From: Bilabrum cf. latius
Taxonomy: Eukaryota
Length of the DNA: 64,000 bases
Assembly (NCBI GenBank): GCA_965178125.1
Contig: OZ237751.1
Location: forward strand, 868,001-932,000
Reading direction: 5' to 3'
The notes beneath the pieces are model-generated. The model ran no database searches and was not told the DNA's origin. It saw only the letters and a program-made list of their open reading frames with translations. Position 1 is the first letter of the stretch. Each line of letters begins with the position of its first letter. Both the position numbers and the translations under genes were made by a program. Positions 1,646 through 62,840 of this stretch are shown here, in pieces.

Positions 1646-4600
1646 ATGCAGGCATGCTCGTAGAACCACGCAACCTATCGATCCGGTACATCGATTGGTC
1701 AGGATGGTTTTGTGACTAGCAGCGAGTTCGAATATGCATCTGTAGGCTTCGAGAACCAGCTCGAACCTCCGATTCCCGCGGTTGCATCTTTGAATTCCAG
1801 CGTGGGGATCTGCAGCGCAGACCTCTTTGAAGACGGAAGCACCTTGCTGGGTGATTCAAATGCATTTCAAGCAATAGTAAGTCGAGCAAGGAGCGGTGCT
1901 GGAGTCCGCGGGTTTGTCGTGTAGCGGCAACCTAGTCTTGCAACGCGAATCGAACGGTACGCGCGCCCCCCTCCTCTCTCTGTCCGGTCACCGCAGAAGC
2001 CTCTAGCAGTGGAAAAGACTGATTCTGGCGATGGTCTTTCCTCCAAGGAGTTGTTTGACTTGGCGGTGCCTTGGCAGCTGCGCAGGAACACCGGCCTCAC
2101 CGCGAACTGGATCGGCCGAGCCCTCTCCACCCGATTCGCCGTCCCAGCCCCTCCCAGGTACGCATGCCCCGGCGCCCGCGGACTTTGTGTGGGAGGAACA
2201 TCGGGTGACGTCGCGATCGCCGTTCCCTCGGGCAGCGCGGGCGGCATGCCCGAGCCGGTCTTCCTCCTCTCGCCGATGGCGGCGAGAGAGCGCCTCGCAC
2301 GGGCCGCAGAGGGCAGGGTGGACGGGTCCGAGCGGATTCGCATGTCCCGCGGGGTCTCTGCCTCGGAAAAGACCCTCCTCCGCAGTGCCGTGCACCGGGA
2401 GATGCTCCGAACCCCGGCCCCGCTGCGCCCGCTCGCGGCCTCTCTGGCGGCCGATTTGCCCCGGTGGGCGAGGCCCTCCTGCGCCGCGTGGACGGGGGAG
2501 GCACCCGGCGAATCCACCCTCCTGGCCGTTGGCACTGCCGGCGGGGTCCTGCTGTGGGCCTTGTCCCCGCTGCGGGGCACCTGGCTGGAGTCCGCAGCTG
2601 CCATGGCCGCTGCCGGACGCAGGCGGCGGCCGCAGGCACCCTCCGGCCTGGATGTGACGAGTATCGCCAGGAGGGGCATCGAGGCAGGGGTGATGGACGA
2701 GGAGCCCGCGGGCAGGAGGGACAGGGTGGCCGCGCTGTCGTGCGATGCACCCTCCTCCTCCTCTTCAACGGGCGGTGGCGCGGGGGGCGTGTCGGGGGGG
2801 TCGGCATCGCCCCAGGGCACTGGAGGGGGGGGGGACGAGGGTTTCTTGGCGACCCGGAGCCCTTGGGACTACCGCCCTCCGGGTGTGACGAGTGAGTCGG
2901 CGGGGCTGGGGGAGAGGGGTGACACGGTTGCCACGGTGGGCCGGCGCTGGTACCAGCAGCGAGTCCCGGTGCACCTGAGGCCCAGGCTGGTGTGCGCCAT
3001 TGGCGGATCTCTTGGCCTGGGTGCTGGTGCTGGTGGCGGCACGCGAGCGGGTGCCATTGGCCGTGATGAGGCAGCCGACTAGTCCGGGGCTCTGGTTCGG
3101 TCGGCCGTCACCGCAGTGGCATGGCTACCACTCCTCCGGGCAGCGGCCGGAAATGGTGGCGGAGGGGATGCTGGTAGCAGTGAGATCGATGGATCGGACT
3201 CGGATGGCAGCTCCAGTCCACCGGCAGGGTCTGGAGGCAGCCAAGTGGAGAACGAACGGAACCCGCTGCTACTGGCGGCGACGAGCGACGGGTGCATCGC
3301 ACTGCTGCGCTGCCGGTGGGACTCGCGTCCTACCAGCAATACAACCAGAAGCGCTAGCGCTAGTGGCGCACCTTCGGCCGAGGCATCTGCCGGCACTGCC
3401 AGCCAGGATGCAGCTGCTGGCGCGGGTACTGGCGGTGAGGCATCCACCAGCATGACCAGCATGGTGCACAGCCAGGTGATTCTCAAGCTGAGGCAGCCGT
3501 CCGGTGGTGTAGCACGGGCCACGGCAGTGCCGCTAGATCGGCTGGAGGAACTGCAATGCAGTGCGCTGCAGGGATGGATCGGAGGCTTGTTGTCGTGGGC
3601 GGCTGGAGGCTCAGTCCAAGGCGGGTCGATCCGTGGATCCGGGGGCCCGATGCGTCTTGTGGCCGCATGCACCGCCTGCTCGTCCAGGGGCTTCTCGATC
3701 CTCCTGGTGGGCCACAGGAGGCTTTCCTCATCGGGAGATGATGCAGACGAGGAGGAGGCGGGAGGTGGAGCGGAGGGGCAGAGCCCGCGCAAGTCGAGTG
3801 CCGGCGGGCTCGGGAGGCGGATGCTGGCGGCGTACAGCGGCACTGCGCTGCACATCTCTGGTTCGTGCTCGGCGGGCGGGGCTCACGCCTGCGTGTGCCT
3901 GTCCCTCCCTGCTGTGACCAGGGGGGCGTGCGTCTCGGCTGACGTTGTTCCCTGGTGGGCTGAGGCGGTGGCGGCGCCGCACGTGGTTGCGCAAGGCCAC
4001 GGCATGTCTGTGCCTGACCGAGCCAGGCTGATGAGCGACTCGATGGGCGTGGGTGGGGGTGTGGGCGGGGTGATGGGGACAGGGATGGGCAGCGGATCAG
4101 GTGCATCGCGTGGTAGTGATGGCGCAGACCTGGGATCGTCACAGGGCATCTCGGTCCGGGCTCCGTCGGTGGTTGCAACCGGTGAGGAGGGCATCATGAG
4201 GCGAGTGCCCATCGTTAGCCTACTGCGCGCGGCTGCGGCCGCGACCGGGATTGGGGAGAAATCCACTCGTCACACCGAAGATGGCATGCATGTGGTGCTG
4301 AACACCGCCACGGAAGAGGTGCTGTCCCGATTCGTCGCGTCCGGGGGAGGCAGGCAAGACGTGCTGTGGCTCGGCAAGTTTAGTGGACAGGGTGCAGGGA
4401 GGCCGGTAGCTGCGGGCTCCAAGGCCCGCTCCTCAGCCCAGATTTCGATGGAAGACGACGATGAAGAAGCGGCGGGAGAACAAGAATATAGAGGCGGAGC
4501 GGTGCGTGGTTCTTCAGAATACGACGCGCTCGCGTCCTGCACGAGGCTGCTGGACGGTCGCCTCGGGGCACCATCCTCCTCCTCCTCCTCGCCTGCACCA

Positions 4601-7420
4601 GGGCCCAGGGAACACATGTCGAGGTCATGGGCATTGCCTTCGCTAGGGGACGCACTGGGCGCGCCCCCACCCGCCCTGACAGGAGCTGCCGCTTCGCCCA
4701 CGGGGCACGTGCTGTGGCGGTGGCAAGTGTACAAGCCCAGCAGCAAGGCGATGAAGACCCACCTCAAGCCAGCGGCGGCCATCCCCACTGTGCCGCTCCC
4801 ACTGGTCCTCTGCAAACGAGAGCACCCTCCCGGGGCGCGGCCCCTCAAGGGCCAGCCCACATCCACCCCCTCCTTCCTCCGACTGGCAGAGATGGGTGGG
4901 TCCGCCGAGGGGGCCATCGGCTGGGGCCCTCTGTCTGCAAGCCTGGTGGCAGGGGCGGGGCTGAGTCTAGGGGCCGCGCTGGGACGGTTCACGAAGGCCA
5001 CCACCGCCGTCGCACCGGAGCACTCGTCACACGCATGGAGCAAAGCAGGAAACTCCCGCTCGTCGTCGGGTCGCTGGCCGCTGCTGCCCCTCTCCGTGCG
5101 GGACGCCGTCCTGCCCCTGAACCACTACGCTGCCTCGGTGGCCAGGGGCATCCTGCCTGACGACGTGGAGGCCGTTGTTCCCCCGCACCTGGACGCGCAG
5201 TACTTTGCTGCGGTGCATCCGGCCTGTCTTGCGGCGGCGGTGGCCATGGGGCCCTGGATGCAGCTAGGGGGTGCCGGGGGCAGCTCCGGTGCAACGGCGA
5301 TGCGAGATGACGGAGACCATGACGAGGATGATGAGGACGATGATGACTCGGAATCAAAACGTCTCGAACCTGCGGAATGGTCCGTGGCTCAGGCGGGCCT
5401 CCACGCAGCCGTGCAGCTGCTGTACCTGTGCCCCGCAGATGCAGGCGACCTCGGGCCAAGCAGACCACCCGAAGTGCAGGAGGCAGAAGATGGGCTAGTG
5501 CCCGCCCCTTCGCACACGTTCTCGCTCATGTGGCAGGCACAGGCGGTGGCAAAGGCCGTGGGGGCGGTGAGCGCGGCTCGGCTGGCATGGGTGACCCGCC
5601 TGCTCGAGGCGTTCGCGGCGCGGTTCGGTTCCGCTAGCTCTCGATCCACCGGTGGATCAGGCAGCGGCACAGACGACGATGCAGGCGACAGTGGTACGCT
5701 GTCCCCTTGCGAGCTAGATCTGTGCGTCCTGCGGTGCGCCGTGCAGCACGCGAGGAGCTACTTGAGTCAAATAGAGGACGGGATCGACGCGGGTGGACTG
5801 GACGGTGCCACCACGGACGGGGACGACTCTAGCGGAGAGAGCGAGGAAGGTGATGGTGATGACGATGGCGATGCTACTGACCTTGGTGAAGACGAGGAAG
5901 ACGAGGAAGATGAGGAAGAGGGCATGTTGGTAGCTAGCAGAAGGCGGGGACAGTCCAAGTCCAGCGGCAAGAGCAAAGGCAAGAGCAAAGGCAAAGGGGC
6001 GACACGCGGGGGCACCTCGCGGGCTCGTGGCACCCAGCCGGCGTACCTGGCGTACGAGAAGGAAGGTGAGCATCGCACTGCGGTGCAGCAGGCCTTCAAT
6101 GACATCGACGCGTTCCACACGCTGCCCAAGCCGAGCGACCTGATGCCGCCAGTGGCGGTGGCCAGGCTCCGGCATGCCGTGGATGCCGCGCTAAGCGCGG
6201 TAGCGGGGTGCTGCGGTGCACTGGTCAAAGCAGCGCTTCGCCGCGTTGCTCGGATTGCTGACGACGATGACACGCGGGTCACGATCCGGGGCCTGCTGAT
6301 CGGCGCCTTGAGCAAGGAGGACGCATGGCGAAGGAGAGAGGTGGACGGGGAGGTGGTGGGCGGGGGCTGGCTGCAGCGCTTGGCCTAGATCCAGGGCGTG
6401 CTCCCCTGCAGCAAGTCCACGGTGGATCGATTCTCGCCGGAAGGACAAGAAGGATAGGGAGGGAGCGAAGCGGGAGCGGGATCAGCCGCTGGCTAGGGCG
6501 GACAGGCGTGGCTTGAGCGCGCTGGCAAGAAGGGCATCACTGGACTCGCGCTGGCATCGTGGACTGCCGCTGCGGCCGCGGCGGCGATGCAGGCGGCTGC
6601 TGCTGCTGCAGGGATGTCGCAGGGTTATCTGGACGGAGCTGCCTCTTCAGCGGTGTCCAAGCCGAGCTCGGGGAGCAGTGGGCATAGTGAGCCTGAGGAA
6701 AGTCCGTTGGGTGATGCTTCGGCCGAGCTGCTAGAGGCGGGCGGTGAGGAGGCCTGGGCAATTGACCGGTCTACTATGGCGGTTGAATTGGCCGGCATGG
6801 TTGCCGCTCTGGACGAGGACGATGCGACGGACTCAGGGGGCGGCGCAGGACAGGGGCGCTCTGCCGCCACTGCAGCCGCTGCTGCTGCCATGGGCATGGA
6901 TAGCGACGAGGATGAGGATGAGGATGCGGACGAGGGCGAGGACAGGGCATCGGGAGGCCTCTCAGACGTGTTCGGCGTCGATCGCGGCGACGGCCTGCTG
7001 ATGCCTCCAGTGTTCCTGGCTCCGAGCGCCAGCGACGGCGAGGCAATCCTGCGCATGCTGGCTGACCCGAACATCCGATCCCCGGAGGCGGATGGCCACG
7101 GGCTGGCAGGCCTGGAGCGGCGGTGCGCCGCTACCATGCTGCCTCTGCCCGAGGGTCGCGTGCTTCGCTGCAGCTGCTGCAGGGCCGACGTCCATGCGGG
7201 GGCTTGGGGCGCAAGCTAGGGGCTGGCAGCAGTGCAAGACCTCGGGCGGGCCGTCGGGGTCAAGTCGCACTCAAAGGCATTGGACTGGGTCGGTGCGGCG
7301 CTGGCATGGCGCGGAGGTGCGACAGATGCAACCCCGAATGTGACGGAGTGCGAGCTGTGTCCAATCTGCAGCGGGGGCATGCTGGTAAGGACTGGGCCTC
7401 AAATTTAGGAAGCTGATTGA
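1646..7420 (+). CDS. ~1924-aa protein with WD40-like N-terminal/central strands and a C-terminal Cys zinc finger; possibly TFIIIC subunit delta (GTF3C4/Tfc8)-like. Requires TAG read-through
   Basis: Track ORFs 1712-1924, 2009-3082, 3116-6388 and 6587-7219 share one frame and are separated only by TAG. First ATG at 1646, first TGA at 7418. WD-like segments: LLAVGTAGGVLLW, VTAVAWLP, LLLAATSDGCIALL. The C-terminal RCAAT...RCSCC...CPIC appears only on reading through TAG. Family identity is inference. Confidence 0.6.
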
Positions 7421-7696: not shown

Positions 7697-10600
7697 TCAG
7701 AAGTGTTTGAGCTCGCCGGTGTGCATGTCCTAGTGCGACCAGCGCAGTCCCCTCCCATTCTAAGCAATTATACCTGCCATGCCAAGCTCCTCCTCGGTCG
7801 CTTGGTCGCTCACGGCTCCCTTCTACATTGCTTGCACCTCTTTCATGGTTGCCCCGTCGAACAAGTACCCTTCCTGGCCGAAGTCCGCTGGCAGGATGCG
7901 CGGAGGTCCTCTGCTCTTCTTCATGACAGCCTCGCTCCAACCCAGCTGGTCAGCAGCGGGCTGCTCCCACCTCTGCCACGCCCTCGAGTCGACGCAGTCG
8001 CCCGTTCGCTCCGCCCATATGTCAAGGCGAGGCGCGCACGAAAAGTCCGTCGAGAACTACGAGGCTCGCTCCGCCTGCCCTTTGATTCGCTGCATCGCGT
8101 CTTCCTGCGCTGCCAGCGAGGGAACGAGCGCCCTCCCAATCGCCTCGCCCATGAGTGCGACTGCGTGGGATGGAGGGAGGTGGACGGTCCCCGCGCCGCT
8201 ACTGCGCGGCTGCCGCCCTTCGCTCCCCAGCATGCGCTTGGGATGGATGCCCAGGTGCTGCTGGTGACCCACGCCCGCGGCAGCCACCAGACCGGCGAAC
8301 CAACCTGACGTGGTGCCGTGCGGGAAGAGCTCGATCAGCTGGGTACCTCGCCCGCGCATCCAGAACGCCTAGGTGATGTCTGAGCCATGTGCCGCCACGA
8401 CGATGTCGGCAGCGTGGGCCAGGCGCACCATCTGGTCGTGCGTAAACCCGCTCATCGGCGTGAGTCTCACGTCCAGTCGGACGCGCCTGGGGACGGGCAG
8501 AGGGGAGGGCACCGGCTGCTTGGGGGGCTCGCTCGACGGCTGCTGGGACTGCTGCTCGCTGGCCCGGTCCTTGCCATTGCCAGTGCTTTGGGAATAAATG
8601 TGCCGCATAGGGCGGGGCTTGGTCGTGTCCTCGAATCCAACCATGCCGTAACTCGGCAGGTGTGCCACAGTGGAGCGACCCTTCCTACCCCTGCCCGTGC
8701 CCAGCCCCAGCGCCTCCCCGACCCAGTCGCCCACCCGCTTCGTGGATCGGTGCACAGATGCCGCTGCCCTGCCGTCGTCCCCCCTCGTGCCCTACACCCC
8801 CCACGGCTCGGCTGTGGGCAGGTTGTGCCTCTGCAGCTTCTCTCCCAGCACGGCCTGCAGAGAGGCGAGCAGTCCGCTCTGCCCGCTCTGCTTGTCCGTT
8901 GAGTAGCACCACAGCACCCTCAGGATCCGGTCAGCCGGGTCCTTGTCCCCCGCTGCCGCCAGCCTCTTCTTCCTCGTCTCCTTGATCTTCTTTGACTCAA
9001 ACGACTGCGGTTCGTTCTCGTCCTCCCAAGTCTGCAGCCTCGCCGCATTGGCGGACTTTGCCGCCGCTGCCAGCTTGGGCCCCGACTGCTCCCACTTGGA
9101 AGCGGCCTGCCTCAGTCTCTGGTCCGCCACGGTGGGCACGGCCGCCCTCCCTGCGTGAGGCACCCACAGCCAGGGCATCGATCGGAGCAGCTGCTCCTTC
9201 CCGTGCACCAGCAGAGGCACCTTGCCAGCCCCAATGAGGTGGGCCCAGGAGGTGCCCCCTTCCAGCACTAGATCGGACCACGGGGCCACACCCGCTGCGT
9301 CCCACGCCCGCTGGCGGGCCGTCGCCGCGGTGCGCGCGCGAATGTCCAGAGGAGTGTATGGGACGGGTGTCGACGGAGGCATGCCGTACACCACGGTGGA
9401 CACGCATAGAGTGCCTGGGCCCAGCCTGGGCCGAGCCCCTGCCGCGGCCGCCTGCAGGCAGCTCATCTGATCAAGGCCTGCTGACACGCCAATGTGCTTG
9501 CCCGACCACACCTAGCTTGGGGCAGGGGCGGTTGATGCTGCCGCATTTGTGGTGGTGGCCAATGTGGCGCCTCCGGTCCATGCAGACGCTAGCTGTGGGC
9601 TGCCAGGCAGCCCCGGCAGCCACGGTCCCCTCCTCTGGCCCACCCAACCCGCCTCCGCCTCCCCCGCGCCCACCAGCACCGTGTCGTGCTCCCCAAATCC
9701 ATCTGCAGGCCACAGTCCCTGCCTCCTTCCCCCTGCTCTCAGGTCCCTGAGAGGGCCCTAGCCCTCCACCAGCTGAACCAGGGTAAAGGGGCGCGGGCTG
9801 CCGAGCTCGATCCAGGCGTCGAGCGCGGGCAGGTATCCGTTGACCAGCCAGTGCCGAAGGATCCCCGGCTGGAACGGGCGTGTGACGAGCGCGACACTTC
9901 CTCCTTTGGCCAGTTGGAACTGCTCCTGCGGCCTGGCGCGGCTGTCTGGATTGAGGCCGTGCCTCTGCCTTTGCCGCAGGTACTGCTGGAGCCGTTGGTC
10001 CTCGGTACCCAGGGCCTCTGGGTGTGGCAGTGCCTGCCCTATCTCTGTCTTGCTACCAGCACTGCTGCCGCCCTTAACGCTATTGCTATTGCTACTGCTG
10101 CTGCTGCTGCTGCTGCTGCTGTTTCGGTCATTCCCGTTGCCACCCCCCGGGTCCTACTATCCAACCGCGCCAGATCCCCCGGGGCCCGGGCCCGGCCCCA
10201 CGCTTCTGCCCTGCCCCCCTCCCAATCCTCTTCCTCCTCCTCCTTCCCCTTTCCCTTCCCCTCCCAACCCCGACTCGCCGCCGTCCATCTGACCCAGCTC
10301 GTCCCTCTGACCCAGCTCGTCCCTCTGACCCAGCTCGTCCCTCTGACCCAGCTCGTCCCTCTGACCCAGCTCGTCCCTCTGACCCAGCTCGTCCCTCTGA
10401 CCCAGCTCCAGCTCTATGAGGTCCTCCACCCCTTGTTCCCTGGTCCTCTGTTCCATCGCGACGGGTGCACTAGCACTCCGAAGCTCCTGGGGAAGCGCCT
10501 GCGCATCCACCCGCAGGGGGAGGCGGCTCCTCCACGCGTACCACCCCGAGGACGAGGACGCGCGCATGTTGCCGACCGCCCCCACCGCACCGAACTCCGG

Positions 10601-11524
10601 CACGAGGCCTTGTTCGTAGGAGGCGTGTGACGACTTTAGCCACTCCTGGTGCTCCCCCTGAGCCGCGGTGCTACCATGCAGTGCAGTTGTGTCGGCTGGC
10701 GCCGCGTGGATGGGGCCGGGCAGCTGCTGCTCGGTGTTCACGGTGCCCTGCTCATCTGTGATGACGGCGCGGCCGAACACGCACAAGCGGGTGGTGTCTG
10801 CCCAACCCGGGGCATCTTTGGCGTGCCTTTCACCCGGCTGGGCGAGCTGAGCGTGCGTCGGGACCTACGCGAACCCCGGTAGCAGCGACGGTCGACCGAA
10901 CGTTCGCTCTGCCCAGGAATCGGCACAGACCGGCCGCCCGTGAATCGCCTGCAGCCCGGTTCCCCTGATTATGTCCTCCCCAATCTGGCGCAAAGTGGCC
11001 AGATGCATCCCTGGCCGGCGCCCGGTGACCGTGTCTGGCCCAGGCGGGGCGGGCTCTCCCGGGTCGGGGAGAAGCAGCGCCGGCACCGGCGACAGGCTGT
11101 GCATTCGCCAGCCTGGAATCATCTCGATCGCGTAGACGACGCAAGCCAGACAGAATAAAAACGCACAGAGAGCCAGGATTGCTGAGGGCAGCGAGGGCCA
11201 CGAATCGAGGCGCTAAAGGCAAAGCCGGCTGGTGCAAGCCCATGGTGCTTTCCAAAACTAGCGACACGGCGCCCCACTGCACGCGTGTCGAGCCCAAGCG
11301 TATAAATCAAATGAGTGCCTATGACCTAATTTTGCGATGGTGCGAATTGAGGTTGACGAGCCGTTTGGCTGATCTTGGCCGAGGCCAGCTGTTGAAATCG
11401 ATGCCGGCGCGCGCAGCTGCGGATCTGCATACCGCCCATTAGAGCCTACTTCAGTAGCATGATTGACTAAATCACTATCTGCGTTATCCCTAACTCGCCG
11501 TCTGCGGTGATCTTGCCCGTTCAT
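7697..11524 (-). CDS. Glycosyltransferase family 61 (DUF563)-like type II membrane protein, ~1275 aa, TAG read-through
   Basis: ORFs 11258-11524, 10865-11122, 10157-10786, 8792-9511, 8369-8755 and 8057-8359 are in frame and joined by TAGs, ending at TGA 7697-7699. N-terminal TM segment AILALCAFLFCLACVVYAI. The GT61 signature QMVRLAHAADIVVAAHGSDIT[TAG]AFWMRGRGTQLIELFP spans a TAG. Confidence 0.8.
10290..10406 (-). repeat. 18-bp coding tandem repeat (~6.5 copies, ELGQRD)
   Basis: Unit tgacccagctcgtccctc is repeated directly, in frame within the GT61 gene. Confidence 0.95.
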
Positions 11525-11858
11525 GCGAAACTTAGCCTGGGTGAAGGTTTTCTGGAGCCCCCTCTCAAATCAAGCCAGCAGCAGACTGGATGCAGTGTTC
11601 TACCCTTCTATGTATGGCAGCCAAGTTAGCCGGTATTTTTGAACTCCCACACGGCCGTTTGAGTAAGTAAAACTGAGCAGTTTCTCGAGCGAAGCGGCTT
11701 CTTCTCCCCTGGATTATCAGGCAATTCCGGTTTTCGGTTGTCCCGGCAGAGTAGACATAACATCAATTCCTAGTCAAATACCACTCCGATCTGAGAAATA
11801 TATAAATCCACATGGAGACAAAGCTGCGTAGAATCCGCATACACAGTCCCGCACTCGA

Positions 11859-14800
11859 TCATCCCAGCATAGACTGCATTCTACGAGCAGAAATAGACCC
11901 GCGAGCCTAGCCAGCCCTATCCATTCTGTTCAACTTGAAGCCCAAGCCCGAGTCCAGAGCTGCCCGCCGCCCCGCCGCCGTCTCCAGGCCAGCCAACCCG
12001 AGCCCGACAAACGTCCCCGGTCTCCCCAACGCCCTGGCCCTCTTCTTCTCCTCCTGCTCCCGCATCGCCCTGGCGTGCTCGGCCAGGCTAGACTTGCTTG
12101 GGACCCCCCTCGCCCTCTCACTTATGCCCCTATTGGAGCCATGACCCCCACTACCAGTACCAATGCCAACGTCCCGGTTGCCAACTCTCCTTTGCATACC
12201 ACCTGAGGCTGTCTCAACGGCAGACCGAGCCGCGTGACCCACCCGCGCACCGGCCCCCTCGTCGCCCACGAGGGAGGCAGATGGCCTCGACGACCCTGCC
12301 GCTGCACGACGCCGCGCAGTTGGTAGCGGAGCATGTAGGCCGGCAGTTGCGTCTTCAGTCTCGCGGTCGTCGGCTCGATTGGTTCGCGGGTGCACTGCAC
12401 GGTGGTGCATCGGTCTGTGTTGGCTGTCCCTCCCAGGTGCGGCGACCTGACCCGCGCCAGCCCGGTCTTGCGTCGGGGTGCGGCTTGAGTGCCCGCGGTT
12501 ATCCTGCTTGGCCCCTTTGCCTTTGCCACCTGCTGCCGAGTCCTGCCGGGCATCCCCGATGACCGCTTGCTGCAGCTGCAGCCCGACCCGCCGCAACAGC
12601 GGATCAGCCCTCAGAGCCTAGAGCACCTCCTCCTCTCTCTGAGACGGGCCAGCAGCACTACCATGCAGTGCACCTGGTTCAATCGTCACACCATTGCCCC
12701 TGATGGTTTCGGCTCCGAGTCCCATGGCTGCCAGGTCGCTCATCGCTGCCAAAGAGGGCAACGGCAGCCGGTGCAGTAGGTCGTTGGATCCACCTGTGGA
12801 CTGCAAACCTGTCAATGAGGGGCTGCCATCCCGTGACTCAGCCTCGTTATGCCCTACTTCTGGGCTACTCCTCTGCAGGATGGATCGGGCGGGCCCCCGT
12901 ACCACGCTGTCGCTGGCCAGGCGACACGCCGATACCGCCCCTCGCAAGCGGGCCATCAAGCCCTGCGGAAGCACTGGTTCCTCTCCACCACCCGCACCTG
13001 GATACATCTCGCCTTGCAAAGCGCAGCAGTGCACTGCACCCATCAGCATCCTCCAGAGCGCCGGCCAGCTGATCCTGTGTCTGCATGCCTGCGCCCGCAG
13101 GCACAGGCCCTCCGCCATACGGCACAGTCGCCGCCTGTCCCGCGGATCCAATTCAATTTTAGCCTCGGCTTGTGAGGCTTTGCCAGCCCCGGGGTCCCCC
13201 CTGGGTTCCTTTACACGCGGCTCCTTGGAGCGGGGGCGGCCTTCCGGCTCACGGCTGTGTGGCTCGCGACCTGCATCACTGTGCATTGCGGCGGCTGGTT
13301 TCGAGTTGCTGTGGGGGAGAGGGAGCTATGGGGGACATGGGCCTGACTGTTGCCTTGCGAGCGCCATGGCTCCAGTGTCGGCAGCTGCCACGCGACCTCG
13401 AAGCTATTGCGAGCCGGTTGCTGCGCCGACTGAACGAGTAGAGTCCAGCCCGGCATTGCTAGACCCCTCCCCTCTTGGCCTGCCTCGATGCAGATCAGCG
13501 CTGCGGTCTTCTCGCTTCCCGGGAATGGCTCTGTGGTGTCGCTGGTGCCCTGATCGGTGGGCACTAGGCTTGGGGGGTGGTGCTGCGGGCATCGCACTGG
13601 CGCGAGCTGCGACTGGCTTGTCGCGCTCACTCGTGCCCTGCAGCAGCACGTGCACCGGGGGCCCGTCGGGCCCGGGACTAAGCCGATTGGAATTCTCATC
13701 AAACTGAATTGGACCGTCTCTGGCATCTGATCGCGCGGATTTTCCCGTTTTGGATGGCACGCGACTACCTTGGTGGCGCTGCCTGACTCCCCTGCCAGGT
13801 GAAGATGAAATCTAGCTTGATCTCACTGGTGAATTTTCCTAATCCTGTGGAGCCTATCTAGCTGGACTGACGTAATCAGAATGAGCCTTGGATCGATCTC
13901 TTTGCGACATCCAGTGGCGCGTGCTAGGACTGCCAGGCAAATGCATGCTATGATGCCTGCCATCCCGGCTGTCGGAGCCCTGCTTGGACACTTGCATAGA
14001 TCGCTTGACGCGCACCACCTTTGGGCCAGATCGATGCGGAGCCTCTCTTGGCACCACCCGCCTCCGGCTGGGGCTACTGGGCTCCTGCCTGTACTCTCGG
14101 GCACTAGGCCGCCGAGGAGCTCTGCCATCAGGCACGGGTGGGCCGCCGCTGTCTCCCATTGCGACGTGCTGCCCCACCATGCCCTCATGCATGTTGTTGT
14201 TCCCCTGGCTACCATGAGGGCCACCGGACGGCGGTGGTGGTTGCTGCAGACGGGTGGAAGCATGTTGGCCCAGCTTGCTATCAGTATCCAATTCCTGTGG
14301 ACCCTCCGCACCCGTGGCGCGGCGGTGGCGCACGGTCACTCGCCGAACTCCACCGGTGGATTCATAGGCAAGGGACCGTTTGGACCGCTCTTGCTGCTTC
14401 TGCTCCGAATCACCGCCACTTCTTCTGCTGCTCCTATCGCGACTGATCTTCCGTTGCGTGCTTTCGTCATAGATGCCACGCCCATCCTGATTGCCACTGC
14501 CACTGCCCCGCTTGTCTGTTGGAACCCTGCCAGACACCCCATCACCATGACCACCGTCACCGACCTCCTCGCCAGCCTCATCCCGGGATCGACTCAGCTC
14601 GACGAGCACCTGCTCCAACTCGGCTACTGCACGGCTGGCCGAGGGTCTCCTAGTTCCGGCTTTGTCCAGCATGGCGTCGACCAGGCGGCACAGCTGCGGT
14701 GGGTGCCTGCCGGGGCCGTGCCCCGGCTGCAGGGAGGGGTGCGGCTTCTCCACGATCAGGCGGGTGAGGGCGTGGATGGAGGGTGCATTGAACGGCGGTG

Positions 14801-15578
14801 CGCCTCGCAGCATTTCCAGGAGCAGCACGCCCAGGGACCAAACGTCGGTGGCAGTGTCGTAAGGCCGTCCCAGGCACATCTCGGGGGAGAGGAAGAGAGG
14901 CGTGCCGAAGAATGTTTTAGCCATTACCGTGTGCTCGCTCAGCGGCCGACTGACCCCAAAGTCTGCCAGCCGAGCCACTACCTGGACGCTGCGTGGCAGT
15001 GGCTCGGTGTCACCGGCAGCGGCGGTGGGTGGAGGCCTGCCGGTGCGAGACGACGGGCGACCCGCAGATCCAGCGCGCGGCCATTCAATGGCGACAGCAT
15101 CCGCAATGTGGTCCGCTTCAGCTTCACAAAGTACAACGTTGAGACCTTTCACATCCCTATGGATGACACTCTTTGCATGCAAATGTTGCAGTGCGCGGGC
15201 GATGTGAAGACCGAATCCAACTGCGCACAGCTTGTCCATGCACTTTCCGGCTCTGGCGTACCCCTTGATGAGCCCCTACAAATCGCCAAACTCTGCCCAT
15301 TCCAAGACGACAAACACTTCTCGCTCAGTCGCACCTCGGAAGAAGCCGAAGCAACGGACGACGTTTCGATGCTGTAGGCCTGCAAGCAGCCGCGCTTCGT
15401 GCAAAACGTCATGACTAGAGCCAAGTTCGGCCGAGTATCGCCGCTTTAAGGCAAAAACTGCGCCATCTTTGCGGCGGCGGGCCTTCAAAATCGCTCCGGT
15501 AGTGGACGCATGAATTTCGGCGAGAACTACAAAGTCCGATAGGCGCCACGGCAACTCGCTCAGTTTGCCCGAACTCAT
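11859..15578 (-). CDS. NEK/NIMA-type Ser/Thr kinase, ~1239 aa, long low-complexity tail, TAG read-through
   Basis: FALK, HEARLL, HRNVV, EWAEFGDL[TAG]GLIK, HRDVKGLNVVL, LADFGVSR, GTPLFLSPE and DVWSLG. The kinase domain is split in the track only by TAG at 15276. The frame continues through further TAGs to TGA at 11859. Confidence 0.88.
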
Positions 15579-15703
15579 GCAGAAGCATTATCCTTGCAAA
15601 TATTACGTACCTCTTGCATTGTCAGTGGAAGCTTGACAGGCACGAACAACTAAATGCAAACGCAATCAACGGCTTTCTAGGTGAAGGTTCGCGGACGTCA
15701 CGG

Positions 15704-27022: not shown

Positions 27023-27194
27023 AATATGTATATGTGTGCGAGTTCTATGCTACACCGGCACCGCAGAGCTTGAAGCCAACACCACCGACGTGACCGATCC
27101 AATGGTTGGGCAGTTGCAGGGTGCACGCAACCCAACCACCCCAAAAAGCAAGCCTCCAGTCAACCACTATAAATTCATACACAACATATAGCTG

Positions 27195-27666
27195 TCAAGC
27201 AAAAAATGAAGCCGTGCTGATGCCAGCATCTGCCGACCCGCCGGTCTCATCCGTGCCATTCCGAACTCCAGTCGGCCCAGCAAACGCACCACCTGCACCC
27301 TCCCCCTCCTGCGCCGCTGCTTTAGACTCGAAGAATGCCGCTGGATTGGTCCCTGGTGACACGTTCGCGAGCGCGCCTGCCTGCTGGAACAGAACAGCAG
27401 CACCAGGGGCGGGAGCGCTTGCTTGGTGCTCGCCTGCAGGTGCACCTGCCTTTGCGCCACCAAAAACAGCAGCCGCGCTAGCCTTCATCGGAGTATCATC
27501 TACGGCTCGAATGCCGAGGACGGGCTGTGGCAGCCCTTCTGCACGTGCAGGCGCCGATGTGCCGCGAGGACTAGTCGGGCCAGATTGCTTCTGCACTCCA
27601 ATCGATTGCTCTTCACCGTCGTGGTCAGGGGACTGATGCATGTCTAGAGGCCGCTCTTGCTCACCT

Positions 27667-27709
<43 letters not shown>

Positions 27710-50800: not shown

Positions 50801-51074
50801 TGGGGGTATCCGGTGCTGGGGCTCGGTTCCAAGTGGGTTCCGTGTGCACCGGGTTTGAACAGTGGGATTGCTGGGAGAGTGGCTACATCTCTTGCTCTAG
50901 GGTGCTTGACGCTCCCAGTACCGACAAAGCCCCGACTATCAGCGCTATTGATGCCCCTTTTGGGCATTTCAGCAAAACAGCCCCCATAGGAGCCTAAAGG
51001 GTAGCGGATCCTCGCAGCCCACTCGTCACGGTCGCAGGTCTGATTAATCACCAGTAGACGCTACCGTAGTCCCA
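41867..51074 (-). mobile_element. Full-length APE-type non-LTR retrotransposon (~9.2 kb)
   Basis: Contains an APE+RT ORF. Both termini are duplicated in the 39004-39175 element. (TC)n and (ATTTTT) tracts lie at the 3' end. No clear flanking TSD was seen. Confidence 0.9.
42180..50987 (-). CDS. Single ~2935-aa retrotransposon polyprotein: signal-like N-terminus/TM helix, Pro-Ala linker, putative cysteine protease, AP endonuclease, reverse transcriptase, C-terminal CxxC
   Basis: ATG 50987 to TGA 42180 in one frame with ~22 TAGs and no TAA/TGA. APE motifs: GHLNVN, LLFMTE, VLIGDLNTH, NCLD, DHSPV. RT motifs: AIK.LKSGKATGPSG, QFGF, DLKAAFDRV, GTCQGDPISP, LYADD, YLG. Confidence 0.9.
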
Positions 51075-51129: not shown

Positions 51130-54100
51130 ATGTAGTACTTGCTTCGATTTCCAATCATACAGAGGAGTCTCCCGCCATTGTAGAGCATTTTGCCGTACTT
51201 GCTATCCACGGATGGACACGACGACATCCACAAGTTCACACTGAAAGAAGAGGGCATGCTCACTCAATTGGCAGATTTAATGACTGGCTATGATAAACTT
51301 TTGCGAACGCCAATCACTCAAGACACAGTGGACTTCTTGTGTCAAAAGCTTCTACGATCGGCATGTCCGAGGCACCTTGTTCTCGACATGATTCGCACTG
51401 TGGGACTTGTACCACGTGCAGCGGTGCATCTGTAGAAGTATATATCTGTGCTCCTTGTACAGGCTGTGCGTTTGTTGCAGACAGGAGAGTGCAGTGTGGG
51501 AATCCGGCGTGTTGGCTTTGAGCTGGCCGGGTCCATTCTGGCTGGTTGCCTGGACAAGCTACTGCTTTTTGAAGGCAGTGCAGAAGTGGAACATGCACCG
51601 GCTGCCCTTCAATCTGAGCTCACGCCTTACAAATTCGCCGAACTGACCGTTCAAGCGTCCGGCAGCGGAACCGCGACATCAGCAGCAGGGTCCGCTGAAT
51701 CTAGATCCGAGATCGGATTCCGTCCATCCGCTGCGAGCAGCTCGAGTGGCGCTGCTACCGGAGGGGCTGCCCCACCATAGGCCTCTCCGGTGTCTGCATT
51801 GTCCTCCGGCCCTCCTGAGGCCGCCCATCATAGCACCTTGCCTGTTCGCGTCATTGAAGCCGCGGGCTCTGTGCTGGCAGCGGCAGGCCCATCCGATGCC
51901 ACGCCCGACCGCTAGCTGCAGCAGGCAGCCGCGATGCTGCTGGCCACCGTGGCCTGGTGCGTGGGGGAGGTGGTGCAGGCTTCTGATGGCGAGGAGGTGG
52001 GCAAAGGAGCAAAGGTGGGCAAAGGAGCAAAGGTTGTAGGAGGGGGTGCATCGGTTGCACTGGTGCGCGCTGTATCATCGGGGCTGCAGGCCATGCGGGA
52101 AGCGCCTGCAACGGACCACCGTGCTGTGAATATCGTGCGGATGTTGATGAAGGCGCTAGGCACGGTGTGCTACTGGTCTCCCGATGCCAGGGAATATGCA
52201 AACCACGATGAACGCATATCATCACTGCTATATAAGGACGATGAGGACGACCCGCAAGTCCTCAGCGACCCTGGCGATGTTGCACCTGCGGCAAGCAGCA
52301 CTGAGGTGATGCATTCACGTTTGGTTGCACCCGTTGCGGTGTTTGTTCGGGGCGTGCTGGCAGGGATTTGGATAGGAGAAACCTCGGCGAAAGGTGCAGG
52401 TTCTGACGCTGACGCTGACACTGACGCTGTCCCTGTAGCATATTCTGATGCTGCAGAGCCGCAGCTGCCCGCAGACTTAGGGCAGCATGCATCAGCGCAT
52501 TCCACAGCAGATGCAGTCTAGGCACATTCGCGCTCATCCTAGGCCGCAGGGCAGTAGACCGCCGTGGACTGTGCGGGTCTGAACATGAGGAACAGCATCA
52601 CTGGCTATCAGGAGGCAGCCGGGAGCCAAGACCTGGCCGGGTATGAGGGCGTTGGCGGCCTAACGGACAGCCCCCCACCAGCTGCATCAGGCGCAGGCAG
52701 TTCCGATCATTCAAGCGCAAAGTAGTCAGGCATGCATCAGGAAGAGGGGTGCAAGGACCACCAGCGCGCCTTCGAGCTCGCTAGGCTTACCATCGCAAAG
52801 AGCATCGCCGAGGAGCGCGAGCGGCTGCGAGCGATCGAGGCCGTGTGTGACGAGTTCCGACACGATGCTGTTGAAGCAGCGCAGCAGATGCCAGCTCTCC
52901 TTGGGTTGGTTAGGACGCCTACCCCCTTCTGTGGTGCTGACTGCGAGACTGGTACGACTGCGAGCGAATCTTCAGGTATTGCGCCTGGTGCAAGGGACTC
53001 ATCGAAAGCAGCAGACTTAGTCGTCCCGGACTCGTCCGGTGCTACTATCCTGATTGATGCCGGCGGCATAGCAGGCGGCGCCAAGGCCATCCACGCCAAG
53101 CACGGCCTCTTCCTCAAGACACCCGAGTCTGACAGCATCTACGGCAGCGATGTCATGGCGGCAAAGGTCATGAAGTTGGAGATGAAGGCAGCCAGGTGGG
53201 TGCACGAAATGGACTCGATCCACGCCAATGGCGTTCTGACCACCGTGGTGGATGTACCGTACGAGCGCAAGGATGGGAGAGGCAGGGGCGTGCAGCGTGT
53301 GCAGGTGCAGGCCCGTGTGCCGGTGAGCGACGCCACCCTCCGGTACGGGTCATCGGACGGTGGTGTGACGATACACGTGGACAAGGAGCAGGAAGCAGAC
53401 GTAGTAGATAAATTGGCGGATCACTGCAAACTAGCACCACTGGGGCAGGCGGGGTGCAAGCGGGTGGTCGTGCACACTTACGATCGTGTTGGAATGGGTT
53501 CCACTGGCGAGCCCTACAGCTGGCTGGATGACATGAAGCAGATGGGCCACGACATGAGCGAGCTAGAGGAACTGTGCACTCCACCATCGCATGATCACCG
53601 GGAACCATCTTCGAAAGAGGAGATCGCTTTTGGGCTCGGCATTGACTTTAGTCCTGCATGTACCGCGTTTGGCAACCCACACTCTTGTCGAACTATTGAA
53701 CCTGCTACTGCGAAAGAGCATGGGTGGGACGTTGCTGATGGGCTCCTGATTCACAAGCTTCCATTCGACGTGGAGATTCACCAACTGGAGAGCGGCAGCA
53801 GGATCGTGCTCGACACACACCGGCTTCTGCCTCCCGACCTGGCGTGGATTCTTTGGGCTAGGTAGAGCGAAGAATCTAGACCTCGTGTCTGGGCAGTGTA
53901 GACGGAACCGCCAGTGTACTGCAGTGGGCAACTCGATACTCATTTTCCATGGCCTGCAAACTCAAAGAGCTGGCCAGAATCTCTCGCGTAGTCACAAGAC
54001 GAATCTCTTAGCGCATCATTCTGTGGGGCGGTCCATGGCTGGGCCCGAGCCCAAGATCGTCTCGGGCCTGCTTCAAAATGCACACTTCACTCCCTACACC

Positions 54101-57100
54101 GCGGGGCTGGTATCGTGCTGCTGACCTCGGACTGTCCCACCAAGGGTAAGGTGGTGTACGTGGTGTCGTGCCCGCAGTGGTATTGGGGCGATGTGCCGTC
54201 GCTGACGTGCATGATGCCGCCGGAAGCAGCCGGGTATGGTTGTACGGCAACGGACGACGATGCCGAACCAATAAGTAGTGTTAGTCCTGATTGCACGTTG
54301 AGCGCTGGCGCTGACCCAACCCAGAAACATAAGAGAAATCTCGCTGCATGGACGGGTGCTGTCACGTCACCGGACAGGCTAGCACGAGTCTGGGAATCCC
54401 TTCGGAGCTGCATACCAGACATTGGAGTGAAAGCAGAGGATCAAGATGACGACGAAACAGCAGCCGATTCGCATGAGTACGGCGCCACTGGGTTCAGGTG
54501 GTCGTCGCTGCACAATATTCGAAGATCCGCCAAGCGCGTGCTAAGACAGGGTGGTCTTCGATTAAGACACATTGGCATGGTGGCACGGACGCCCAAGGCA
54601 TCAGATAACCCGCATACGCTTCTACATGCACTGGTTGCTTGCGGTAAGACTTGGGATCAGGCCCGACTGATTCCGAGTCGTTCGGGTCCTGGTTTGTGCT
54701 CCCGAGGCACTTCCCTTGAGGCAAGTGCTCGAGTGGAGGCTGAGACGCAACACGCAGCGCCACAGATATAAAGATCTGGGCACTGGAGTTCTGTTGAAAG
54801 GTGGTGCCCACGAATTCTCTGGAATTTACCGACTGTTGGCCACCGACGGGTCCGAAATGCCAACACTCACGCTGCAACTCAACGCCATGCGTACTCGCCT
54901 GCTTAGCGTATCACTCTTAGTGCGAATGTTGGTTTGAACTATTAACGAACTATTGGAGGGCGTACAAAGTGCGGCCGGTAGCGAGTTCCCGGGGTATCTG
55001 AAGTTAACCGCAAAATTTTGACCCGGCTCGTGCCGCATCCGTGACGGCCTGGGAGCCGCAGCCGCAGCCAAGCTTACCTTTTGTGGATGCAAGGAAGCAC
55101 TAGCGGAACCGGAATGCGCGTATAAGTCATGCGAGACCGCGGACCAGGCACAGCAACGCCGGCGAGATCATTTTCTCGTCAGCATGGCTCCCACTCTAGT
55201 TCTCTTCACAGAAATGAGCTCGAAACCACGGCCACAGGCGGTAGCAGCCATGGTCGACTCTTTCCCTAAGCTAGGGCGGTCCGCCGAAGGCGACGAGTCG
55301 CCACTGATGGTGCGGGTGTTCCGGTGGACCATGCTCGACGGCACGCCAACAGGTGCGCAGCTAGCGTGCGACCTCCTCCAGATGACGGCGATGCGGCACC
55401 TCATCAGCCTGCAGAACGCGGCAATAACTGGGGCAGTGGATACGGCGGCAGCCACCGGGTGGCCGAGGCGAACGGCACCCACGGAGTAGGCGCCCGGCGG
55501 GCCTGACGTGTCGAGCACGGACGCCGTAGAGCTGGAGGACATCAAACCGTAGTGCTGGAGGAGGCCCAGCTCGTGAAGTATCTGGTGGCTGCCAGCCTCG
55601 AGCTCTCCGCATCGTGGAACTTCTCAATCGCGCAGGAGAAGGCGGAGGCAGCGGCGCCCGGTGCAGGAAGTGGCGCAAGGAGAGTGCTCCGACGTCGCCG
55701 CGCCACTACTCCGGTAGCGGCAGCAGTGGGGTACCCTCGGGCGCTGAGGTTGTAGCTGGATCAAGCAGGAGAGCGTGACCTACACCCGTGCGCCAGATTC
55801 CGCTGCTGAACGTGCCAAGGCGACGCTGGCTGCCAGACGTGGGGCCAGCCGCATCGCCGCGACACAAGTACTTGGCCGGGGCGGGGCCTCAGGTAGTGCT
55901 TCTTCGTCATCGTCTTCCAGCTCCGTTCCTAGAAGGGATATAGCCGACAGTAGGGGGAAAGATGGGCCTGGACTCACACTCCTACCGTCGAGCGGGTCCC
56001 ACGCTGGGGTGGCTGTGCGGCACTTACGGGCCCCGCCCAGCTCTGCTTTGCGTACAACCGATCAACTCTCGGGAGACCTATTGGCTGCCTCTCCTTCAGC
56101 CCCGGATGTGCGTCTGCCCTCTTATAGGGCAGATCTGCCGGGGCCTCGGGGGTTGACGCCGTAGGCTCTATTCAACGAGGGCTCGCCGGTGGGAAACAGG
56201 CAGAGGTATCTGATGGGGATGACGACGAGGGGGCAGCAGACTCTGCGGCTGGTGAGAGCCGAGCACATCGTGGTGTAGACTCTGCGGCTGGTGAGTGCAG
56301 CGCCATCTTGGGTTTACTTGGGATGGCGTGGTCTTGATGGCACCAGCGTGCGCCTGCTGCGGACCGCCGTGCTGTGGATGTCAGCCTGGCGAGCCCTTGG
56401 CGGGTCGCTTTGCGTCATCTAGTAGATCGACTTGGGCTTGATTGGTCTTCAGAACGCCAGTGTGCGCCTGCCATAGACTGTCTTGCTGTGGAGGGCAGCT
56501 TGGCGAGCCGGTGGGAAGGGCACCCACGGAGTGCAGGTGCTCGGCGGGCCTGACGTGTCGGGCTCAAGGCGCAGTCAAGCTGCAGGACGTGCAGACCGTG
56601 GTGATGGAGGAGGCCATACTCGCAAATGATGTAGTGGCCGCCGTCCTCGAGCTTTCCGCAGCGGGGAAATCCTCCATAGCGCAAAAACGAAAGCGGCGGC
56701 AGCAGCGCCCGGTTCAGGAGGGACGCCGACGTGGGCGGGGAGAGTGCTCCGACGTCGCCGGCGCCACTACTCCGGTAGCGGCAGCAGTGGGGTACCCTCG
56801 GGCGCTGAGGTTGTAGCTGGATCAAGCAGGAGAGCATGACCTACACCCGTGAGCCAGATTCCGCTGCTGAACGTGCCAAGGCGACGCTGGCTGCCGGAGG
56901 TGGGGCCAGCCGTATCGCCGCGACACAAGTACTTGGCCGGGGCGGGGCCTCAGGTAGTGCTTCTTCGTCATCGTCTTCCAGCTCCGTTCCTAGAAGGGAT
57001 ATAGCCGACAGTAGGGGGAAAGATGGGCTTGGACCCACACTCCTACCGTCGAGCGGGTCCCACGCTGGGGTGGCTGTGCGGCCCTTACGAGCCCCGCCCA

Positions 57101-62840: not shown

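What the first reader, a model, noticed from the sequence alone, without database searches (positions are those of the whole stretch)
1646..62840. Variant nuclear genetic code: UAG is a sense codon (Gln) while UAA/UGA stay stops
Seen: every long gene is cut in the track only at TAG and continues in the same frame, including inside conserved domains: kinase GDL*GLIK (15276), GT61 HGSDIT*AFWM (8369), RT AIK*LKSGK (44883) and TPR LGDFE*A (62604). Genes end at TGA, or at TAA for the RIIa gene, and I found no in-frame TAA in thousands of codons of intact genes. TAG sits inside CAG runs (CAT CAT CAT CAG TAG CAG.. at 27708; CCG TAG CAG8 at ~28050; CGG TAG CAG5 at ~28392; CAA AAA TAG CAG CAG at ~28686) and in Q-typical coiled coil (AR*ELQRE*QR, FE*QLQ). 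Established: UAA and UAG are almost always reassigned together in nuclear genomes; UAG-only reassignment is known from very few protists (e.g. Iotanema spirale, some ciliates, one rhizarian). Inference: this GC-rich lineage may be an independent, undescribed case.
Basis: partly seen in the sequence, partly recalled or inferred. Interest (0 to 1): 0.97.

Follow-up and report, generated by a model that had tools for sequence, protein, structure and literature searches.

The report
UAG read as glutamine, eukaryote
This GC-rich eukaryotic DNA is only readable if the stop codon TAG is translated, almost certainly as glutamine, while TAA and TGA still end genes, a rare genetic-code variant that uncultured relatives in metagenomes share.

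Summary
With TAG read as sense, the window gives nine long, essentially non-overlapping ORFs of 613-2955 aa (15,429 codons). They hold 127 in-frame TAG, 0 TAA and 0 TGA. The two off-frames hold 39 and 55 TAA and 243 and 318 TGA. Eight ORFs end at TGA and one at TAA.

Paralogous copies of the window's retrotransposon carry a residue at 8 of its 23 TAG sites. At 7 of those 8 sites it is Gln; the eighth shows Val or Glu.

A metagenome scan found 17 related loci. In all 17, only TAG-as-sense opens the ORFs. Sixteen ORFs there hold 163 TAG, 0 TAA and 0 TGA in 15,510 codons. Their TAGs sit on conserved Gln columns, and Gln is the best fit by about 10 log10 units.

TAA is not Gln. About 44 in-frame TAA would be expected in the window and none is seen.

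Contigs of four runs from three studies carry the TAGs unchanged, with no splicing.

Not tested: the tRNA-Gln(CUA), eRF1, the proteins themselves, and the organism's identity. The code (NCBI table 15 type) is known from Iotanema and a few ciliates. This looks like a further, probably independent, lineage.

The parts
1571..7420 (+). ORF of 1949 aa (stop to stop), 8 in-frame TAG, ends TGA; no Pfam family
7697..11569 (-). ORF of 1290 aa, 13 in-frame TAG, ends TGA; the GT61-like motif HGSDITxAFWM is only a sub-threshold resemblance
   Evidence: contigs of run X5 cover 7507-9639, 9694-10069 and 10379-11653 with 0 other letters
11859..15587 (-). Protein kinase gene, 1242 aa, 8 in-frame TAG (one inside the kinase domain at 15276-15278), ends TGA
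   Evidence: Pfam PF00069 E 2.3e-37; one colinear X5 contig 11774-15635 with 0 other letters and 0 gaps
15704..21001 (-). ORF of 1765 aa with three internal tandem-repeat arrays, 9 in-frame TAG, ends TGA
22790..27484 (-). ORF of 1564 aa (weak PH domain), 15 in-frame TAG, ends TGA
27195..35711 (-). ORF of 2838 aa (coiled coil, polyQ), 31 in-frame TAG, four of them at the head of CAG runs, ends TGA
35878..36228 (+). Small RIIa-like gene with one inferred GT-AG intron (36033-36133, 101 nt), ends TAA at 36226-36228
   Evidence: read from the sequence; splicing restores ...WSAE|YFARR...; no Pfam hit for exon 1 alone
42180..51047 (-). Non-LTR retrotransposon ORF of 2955 aa (RVT_1), 23 in-frame TAG, ends TGA; paralogous copies give the TAG-to-Gln evidence
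51130..54771 (+). CLU-domain ORF of 1213 aa, 12 in-frame TAG, ends TAA; member of the family used to fetch the related loci L001-L017
60999..62840 (+). ORF of 613 aa (TPR below cut-off), 8 in-frame TAG, ends TGA

Best explanation
The window is nuclear DNA of a GC-rich, intron-poor eukaryote whose translation system reads UAG as glutamine and terminates only at UGA (the usual stop) and UAA. This matches NCBI table 15. TAG makes up about 16% of Gln codons in the window (127 of 802). At least one related, uncultured lineage seen in metagenome contigs shares the code.

Shown here: TAG is in frame and tolerated; TAG interchanges with Gln codons; TAA and TGA are absent from reading frames; TGA and TAA sit at gene ends.

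Inferred from what is established for other UAG-only codes: a tRNA-Gln with anticodon CUA, derived from tRNA-Gln(CUG), decodes UAG but not UAA, and eRF1 has lost UAG recognition.
For: 1. Codon counts. There are 127 TAG, 0 TAA and 0 TGA in 15,429 in-frame codons. The off-frames hold 39 and 55 TAA and 243 and 318 TGA.

2. Code controls. Only TAG-sense produces the long ORFs.

3. Retrotransposon paralogs. Paralogs of 82-94% identity cover 8 of the 23 TAG sites of the retrotransposon ORF. Seven sites show only Q (P0001, P0011-P0015) and one shows V or E. The log10 likelihoods are Q -6.0, E -12.3, K -15.1. The pattern is reciprocal. Paralog fragments stop where the window has CAG (2 sites), CAA (1), GAG (2), AAG (1) or TAG (1). 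Three fragments end at the window's own TGA.

4. Independent replication. In 17 of 17 related loci TAG-sense lengthens the ORF, for example from 197 to 1971 aa. TGA-sense lengthens none, and TAA-sense lengthens one by 5 aa. Sixteen ORFs there hold 163 TAG, 0 TAA and 0 TGA in 15,510 codons. Their stops are TGA x10 and TAA x5.

5. Conserved columns. At 23 TAG sites in well-aligned context, Q is the majority residue at 8. These include the conserved VQRVQVQA motif. The log10 likelihoods are Q -25.2, next best Y -35.6.

6. Read-through in a conserved enzyme. A GH3 enzyme in L003 aligns to PDB 7vc6 to within one residue of that chain's end. It carries a TAG 76 codons before its TGA stop, inside the aligned part.

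7. TAA is not Gln. From the CAA/CAG ratio (174/501) about 44 in-frame TAA would be expected in the window, and 0 are seen, P about 7e-20. In the relatives CAA/CAG is 233/344 and TAA is again 0.

8. Contigs from public runs. Contigs of 4 runs from 3 studies carry the region with no other letters, no indels and no credible joints. They cover 19 of the 21 TAGs of two genes.
Against: No tRNA gene was found in the window or in the 17 loci, so the decoder is unseen. eRF1 was not available, and there are no protein-level data.

At 15 of the 23 well-aligned TAG sites in the CLU family the majority residue is not Q: E 3, R 3, Y 3, A 2, V 2, S 1, N 1. In the GH3 enzyme the three covered TAGs align with P, S and Q. 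The window's own CLU-gene TAGs fall in variable columns and say nothing. The neighbour-residue test is weak: the Q-neighbour fraction is 0.067 for TAG, 0.099 for Q and 0.066 for E.

Whether any of the laid runs is RNA is not on record. Loss of TAG by editing is therefore excluded only if run X5 or X6 is RNA.
Confidence: 0.9

Rival explanations
1. UAG is ambiguous. It is glutamine inside genes but also the real terminator of some genes, so the short tails between a last TAG and the next TGA or TAA are untranslated.
For: Five of the 9 window ORFs have a TAG within their last 25 codons (4, 6, 11, 16 and 25 codons before TGA). About 0.19 per gene is expected, binomial P about 0.015. GC3 of these tails (0.596, 57 codons) lies between the coding body (0.677) and downstream DNA (0.516) and fits either.
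Against: This is a post-hoc test on 9 genes. In the related loci 5 of 15 complete ORFs show it against about 3.5 expected, which is not significant. The retrotransposon tail after its last TAG is conserved in paralogs down to the shared TGA. The GH3 enzyme is aligned through its last TAG to the end of the solved homologue.
Confidence: 0.1
2. TAG is a sense codon for an amino acid other than glutamine, such as Glu, Lys, Tyr, Leu or Ser.
For: One retrotransposon TAG site aligns with V or E. In 15 of 23 CLU-family sites the majority residue is not Q. Two GH3 sites align with P and S. UAG = Leu, Ser or Glu exists in other lineages (PMC11687900 passages).
Against: Gln is the best fit in two independent data sets, by 6 and by 10 log10 units. 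The non-Q sites scatter over seven residues with no second favourite. TAG heads four CAG runs.
Confidence: 0.03
3. The code is standard. On this view the TAGs are nonsense mutations in dead genes, or they are removed from the mRNA by tiny introns or by editing.
For: No run is on record as RNA, so the mRNA sequence is not formally known.
Against: Decay would also make TAA and TGA, and 0 of either occur in 15,429 plus 15,510 in-frame codons. The frame is kept across every TAG. TAG positions are conserved between 84-99% identical paralogs (P0002 and P0003 stop exactly at a window TAG) and between near-identical loci. Contigs from three studies are colinear, with 0 gaps and no credible joints.
Confidence: 0.02
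4. This is the ordinary ciliate or Hexamita type code, with both UAA and UAG read as Gln, and TAA is merely rare because the genome is GC-rich.
For: None was found beyond the GC bias (GC3 0.68).
Against: About 44 in-frame TAA are expected from CAA/CAG in the window and none is seen. In the less GC-rich relatives CAA is 40% of CAA+CAG and TAA is still 0 of 15,510 codons. TAA ends 2 window genes and 5 ORFs of the relatives. TAA-sense lengthens no long ORF.
Confidence: 0.01

Closest known systems
UAG=Gln with UAA/UGA stops in the fornicate Iotanema spirale (Panek et al. 2017, PMC5304391; passages read)
   Same: The codon table is the same: UAG is glutamine and UAA is kept as a stop. The same mechanism is predicted: a tRNA-Gln(CUA) plus an altered eRF1.
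   Different: Iotanema keeps UAA as its dominant stop (passage), whereas here TGA dominates (8 of 10 window genes). Iotanema is an anaerobic endobiont known only from a transcriptome. The relatives found here carry a cytochrome P450 and CLU-domain genes next to recoded genes, which suggests an aerobe. I did not test relatedness directly.
UAG=Gln in ciliates: Protocruzia tuzeti and two phyllopharyngean lineages (McGowan et al. 2024, PMC11687900; discussion passages read); NCBI table 15
   Same: The reassignment is the same, with UAA not reassigned.
   Different: The window is a 64-kb stretch at about 62% GC with a 9-kb retrotransposon and a 101-nt GT-AG intron. From my own recall, this is unlike ciliate macronuclear DNA. 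No phylogenetic test was possible.
UAR=Gln codes (NCBI table 6: many ciliates, Hexamita, Streblomastix, ulvophycean algae, Amoeboaphelidium; listed in the passage)
   Same: A stop codon is captured by glutamine, probably through anticodon mutation of a tRNA-Gln.
   Different: TAA is not a sense codon here: 0 in-frame TAA against about 44 expected.
Other UAG-only codes: rhizarian exLh (Leu), Scotinosphaera (Ser), phyllopharyngean UAG=Leu (passage)
   Same: UAG and UAA are decoupled.
   Different: The amino acid differs. Gln fits best here.
TAG=Gln recoded phages (code 15; abstract of PMC9523058 seen in the listing)
   Same: The codon meaning is the same.
   Different: These are cellular eukaryotic genes: a kinase, a CLU-domain gene, a non-LTR retrotransposon and a spliceosomal-type intron. 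An exact 38-mer of the window found nothing in viral contigs.

Membership tests
UAG=Gln, UAA/UGA=stop nuclear code (NCBI table 15 type) | In-frame UAG inside intact, conserved coding sequence | tested here: met
   There are 127 in-frame TAG in 9 ORFs. One lies in a kinase domain with E 2.3e-37. One lies in the aligned part of a GH3 enzyme in L003.
UAG=Gln, UAA/UGA=stop nuclear code (NCBI table 15 type) | UAG corresponds to glutamine in homologues | tested here: met
   Seven of the 8 covered retrotransposon sites are Q. Q is the majority residue at 8 of 23 CLU-family sites and the best fit by 10 log10 units. The sample is small and comes from two gene families only.
UAG=Gln, UAA/UGA=stop nuclear code (NCBI table 15 type) | UAA is not a sense codon and ends genes | tested here: met
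   There are 0 in-frame TAA in 15,429 and in 15,510 codons. TAA ends 2 window genes and 5 ORFs of the relatives.
UAG=Gln, UAA/UGA=stop nuclear code (NCBI table 15 type) | UGA is not a sense codon and ends genes | tested here: met
   There are 0 in-frame TGA. TGA ends 8 of the 9 long ORFs. Three paralog fragments end at the same TGA as the window's retrotransposon ORF.
UAG=Gln, UAA/UGA=stop nuclear code (NCBI table 15 type) | A tRNA-Gln with anticodon CUA | not testable with these tools
   No tRNA gene was found in the window or in the 17 loci. No whole genome is held.
UAG=Gln, UAA/UGA=stop nuclear code (NCBI table 15 type) | eRF1 altered so that UAG is no longer recognised (in Iotanema the conserved GTS motif has its Thr replaced by Gly, passage) | not testable with these tools
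   eRF1 is not in the window and no genome is held.
UAR=Gln code (NCBI table 6) | UAA also read as Gln | tested here: not met
   There are 0 in-frame TAA against about 44 expected. TAA-sense lengthens no long ORF.
Ambiguous stop/sense codes (Condylostoma, karyorelict or Blastocrithidia type) | The reassigned codon also terminates, depending on its position near the mRNA end | tested here: inconclusive
   TAG is enriched in the last 25 codons in the window (5 of 9 ORFs, P about 0.015). It is not enriched in the relatives (5 of 15 against about 3.5 expected). Tail composition is undecided.

The most novel reading that the evidence does not exclude
The window organism and its uncultured relatives in metagenome contigs form an undescribed, aerobic, GC-rich, intron-poor eukaryotic lineage. 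It evolved UAG=Gln with UAA and UGA kept as stops, independently of Iotanema and the ciliates. The change is old enough that TAG supplies 16-22% of Gln codons. UAG may also still terminate some genes near their 3' ends.
Probability: 0.45. Interest if true: 0.85.

Novelty: new member of a known kind. Interest (0 to 1): 0.72.

Why it matters
UAA and UAG almost always change meaning together. The passages read name only a handful of nuclear lineages that split them. A further case would be useful here because it comes with genomic DNA rather than only a transcriptome, and with environmental relatives.

With the genome, the predicted tRNA-Gln(CUA) and the eRF1 changes could be read directly. It would also add a case in which TGA, not TAA, is the main stop, and a GC-rich case to a field built largely on ciliates.

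There is a practical side too. Gene callers using standard codes cut these genes into pieces. The database proteins found here (P0001-P0020, P0137 and P0138) are such fragments.

Tried and rejected
- Whole genome: none is held.
- The look-up of sequencing runs: no RNA holder is listed, and the kinds of X5-X7 are guesses.
- Read laying: parts without cover in X5 (about 7232-7507 and 11653-11774) are not used as evidence. The seven listed 'joints' have 20-25-nt sides in low-complexity DNA and skip 302-7976 nt. I take them as cross-matches.
- Weak hint only: contigs of X5 and X6, from two studies, both stop at 15635, where the X1 contig runs on.
- Rfam found nothing in the window or in 11 of the 17 loci.
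- ARAGORN found no tRNA in the window or in the 17 loci.
- The metagenome scan with the retrotransposon ORF found nothing.
- An exact 38-mer found nothing in viral contigs.
- The genome-contig scan with the CLU region found nothing.
- The first CLU alignment (A1) was too diverse to search with.
- Representatives search with the CLU ORF: 107 hits, but the window's TAG columns are variable. One site has a single Q; the others are mixed.
- A 120-sequence, 6046-column MAFFT alignment is unreliable. In columns with a majority residue of at least 50% the tally was Q 6, E 3, P 2, L 1, G 1, H 1, R 1, with L013 included. L013 and L014 were dropped because of an in-frame TAA inside the match, possibly an intron.
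- Naming the organism failed. Cluster look-ups gave no names. The Atlas gave only generic CLU and MDH clusters. The MDH gene next to a recoded gene in L002 has as its best named relatives Balamuthia (55%) and Naegleria (52%).
The kinase was not used in any outside search after that, so it gave no orthologue evidence.
- Supplementary files of the papers were not consulted. They may list codon tables or GC values for Iotanema and the ciliates.
Full report
WHAT IS IN THE WINDOW

The window is GC-rich, 0.54-0.69 in 4-kb steps. Under the standard code the longest stop-to-stop ORF is 1101 aa. With TAG as sense, nine long and essentially non-overlapping ORFs appear, of 613 to 2955 aa. As controls, TAA-sense adds nothing, and TGA-sense gives many ORFs but none longer than 1182 aa.

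In the nine ORFs (15,429 codons) the reading frame holds 127 TAG, 0 TAA and 0 TGA. The two other frames of the same DNA hold 114 and 107 TAG, 39 and 55 TAA, and 243 and 318 TGA. Of the 127 TAGs, 125 lie after the first in-frame ATG. Eight ORFs end at TGA and one at TAA.

GENE CONTENT

- Protein kinase: PF00069, E 2.3e-37, with a TAG inside the domain.
- Non-LTR retrotransposon ORF with RVT_1, and a CLU-domain gene.
- A weak PH domain.
- The TPR match is below its cut-off.
- The 'GT61' label has no Pfam support at E <= 0.01 and only sub-threshold PDB hits to POMGNT2, E about 0.5.
- A small RIIa-like gene on the + strand is interrupted after ...WSAE. A 101-nt GT...AG stretch (36033-36133) restores ...AEYFARR..., and the gene ends at TAA 36226-36228 (read). 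This intron is inferred, not shown. Exon 1 alone gave no Pfam hit at E <= 0.01.
- The window holds no tRNA and no Rfam family.

ARE THE TAGS REAL AND KEPT?

Seven runs in three studies hold the kinase gene, but none is on record as RNA. I laid four of them on 1500-15700. There were no other letters, no indels and no credible joints.

Contigs of X5 cover 7507-9639, 9694-10069, 10379-11653 and 11774-15635 colinearly. That is 19 of the 21 TAG codons of the two genes. The other two lie in a repeat the contigs skip. Assembly error and strain-specific mutation are therefore excluded. Editing or micro-introns are excluded only if X5 or X6 is RNA, which is a guess. As a weak hint, contigs of X5 and X6 both stop at 15635, where the X1 contig runs on.

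WHAT DOES TAG MEAN? EVIDENCE 1: RETROTRANSPOSON PARALOGS

Database proteins called with a standard code are fragments of other copies of the element. Eight of the window copy's 23 TAG sites are covered by a residue in some paralog.
- Seven sites show only Q: aa 1989, 2055, 2105, 2137, 2824, 2839 and 2876. The paralogs are P0001 and P0011-P0015, at 85-94% identity.
- One site (aa 1336) shows V in P0137 and E in P0138.

I estimated substitution frequencies from the same alignments. The log10 likelihoods are Q -6.0, E -12.3 and K -15.1.

The pattern is reciprocal. Paralog fragments end where the window has CAG (2 sites), CAA (1), GAG (2), AAG (1) or TAG (1; P0002 and P0003). Three fragments (P0007, P0014, P0015) end at the window's own TGA. 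I could not see the paralogs' DNA, so it is an inference that their breaks are TAG.

EVIDENCE 2: RELATED LOCI

The CLU ORF has only distant relatives among cluster representatives, at 26-60% identity. The window's TAGs fall in variable columns there, which is uninformative.

A seven-sequence alignment of the CLU core (A2) then fetched 17 metagenome loci, L001-L017. They are 47-64% identical to the window's core and have GC 0.52-0.60. In all 17, TAG-sense lengthens the ORF through the match, for example 197 to 1971 aa and 206 to 1989 aa. TGA-sense lengthens none, and TAA-sense lengthens one by 5 aa.

Sixteen ORFs in these loci (15,510 codons) hold 163 TAG, 0 TAA and 0 TGA. They end at TGA (10) or TAA (5); one runs off its contig. 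CAA/CAG is 233/344.

Their neighbours include a GH3+WSC enzyme (9 TAG), a cytochrome P450 (3), a PLD-like protein (3), an AAT-family protein (5), a GTP cyclohydrolase II gene (4) and a malate dehydrogenase (0). The GH3 enzyme aligns to PDB 7vc6 from residue 184 to its last residue 982, against chain residues 4-742 of 743. It carries a TAG 76 codons before its TGA, inside the aligned part.

At 23 TAG sites with at least 60% flanking identity, the majority aligned residue is Q at 8. These include three paralogs with TAG on the conserved Q's of VQRVQVQA, and one site with Q in 35 sequences. The other sites give E 3, R 3, Y 3, A 2, V 2, S 1 and N 1. The log10 likelihoods are Q -25.2, next best Y -35.6. 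L013 and L014 were left out because of an in-frame TAA inside the match.

A cruder 120-sequence alignment gave Q 6, E 3, P 2 and four singletons at columns with at least 50% majority. The three GH3 sites align with P, S and Q.

So most TAGs sit at variable positions, as expected for a captured codon. Where the position is conserved, it is Gln.

TAA AND TGA

If TAA were Gln too, the CAA/CAG ratio (174/501) predicts about 44 in-frame TAA in the window, and none is seen, P about 7e-20. In the relatives CAA is 40% of CAA+CAG, and TAA is again absent. Both codons are therefore stops, with TGA preferred.

AN OPEN POINT

Five of the 9 window ORFs have a TAG in their last 25 codons. About 0.19 per gene is expected, P about 0.015. 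GC3 of those 57 tail codons (0.596) lies between coding (0.677) and downstream DNA (0.516) and fits either. The relatives show 5 of 15 against about 3.5 expected. I cannot exclude that UAG also terminates some genes, and I give that 0.1.

MECHANISM

This part is inferred. By analogy with what the authors predict for Iotanema (PMC5304391 passages), UAG would be read by a tRNA-Gln(CUA) one mutation away from tRNA-Gln(CUG). That tRNA cannot pair with UAA. eRF1 would no longer recognise UAG. In Iotanema the conserved GTS motif has its Thr replaced by Gly (PMC9161772 passage). Neither component could be looked for here.

COMPARISON WITH WHAT IS KNOWN

Discussion passages of PMC11687900 list the UAG-only codes:
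- rhizarian exLh (Leu)
- Iotanema spirale (Gln)
- Scotinosphaera (Ser)
- Protocruzia tuzeti (Gln)
- phyllopharyngean ciliates (Leu, and Gln twice)
- a ciliate with UAA=Lys and UAG=Glu

The codon table here is therefore known (NCBI table 15 type). Five full-text searches found no further UAG=Gln-only eukaryote. Papers outside the library and the supplements were not seen.

The differences from the known cases are these:
- TGA, not TAA, is the main stop.
- GC is high.
- The sequence is a long contig with a 9-kb retrotransposon and an inferred 101-nt intron.
- The relatives carry P450 and CLU-domain genes.

I could not name the organism. Cluster look-ups gave no names. The Atlas gave generic clusters. 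The MDH of L002 has no named relative above 55% identity.

VERDICT

It is a new member of a known kind, unless the organism turns out to be one already described.

Noticed in passing
window 7406-7408, 7730-7762, 11907-11909, 22865-22867, 62820-62822: Five of the nine long ORFs carry a TAG 4-25 codons before their TGA. UAG may double as a terminator near gene ends. The statistics are weak and the tail composition is undecided.
   Followed up: partly
window 42180-51047 (-): A 2955-aa non-LTR retrotransposon ORF (RVT_1) is intact under TAG=Gln. Other copies of 53-100% identity sit in public assemblies, each broken at different TAG positions by standard-code gene calling.
   Followed up: yes
window 35878-36228 (+): A small RIIa-like gene lies on the opposite strand to its neighbours in an AT-richer patch. 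It has an inferred 101-nt GT-AG intron, the only intron candidate seen in 64 kb.
   Followed up: partly
window 40072-41450: There is a tandem array of a 268-bp unit, 5.1 copies at 97% match, in a gene-poor stretch.
   Followed up: no
window 15704-21001 (-): One ORF holds three separate in-frame tandem arrays: units of 48 nt (about 14 plus about 6 copies), 81 nt (6 copies) and 96/189 nt (about 18/9 copies). In one 48-nt unit a TAG replaces the GAG of the other copies, at 19715-19717.
   Followed up: no
window 54650-54771 and 60745-60869; 60560-60740 and 61060-61230: There is a segmental duplication. The last ~40 residues and the TAA of the CLU-like ORF recur at 60531-60869. The stretch VVWGCRGGQPLGEAG...YYNKSGPG recurs at the head of the 613-aa ORF.
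   Followed up: no
window 55700-59650: About 1-kb units are repeated three times, followed by degenerate 39-bp tandem arrays. A ~450-nt element also occurs twice, at 37352-37798 and 39184-39729.
   Followed up: no
window 11653-11774 and 15635-15704: Contigs of runs X5 and X6, from two studies, end at or near the same places just outside the ORFs (15635; 11653 and 11660), while the X1 contig runs through. If these runs are RNA, the transcripts carry no spliced leader, and the spacing between neighbouring genes is under about 120 nt.
   Followed up: partly
L001-L017: The CLU-domain gene is a multi-copy family in the relatives. There are at least 12 distinct long genes (up to 1989 aa) among the 17 loci, many within one metagenome record set.
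   Followed up: partly
L013 196-597 and L014 658-1059: There is an in-frame TAA inside the CLU match of these two identical loci, possibly an intron. They were left out of the residue tally.
   Followed up: no
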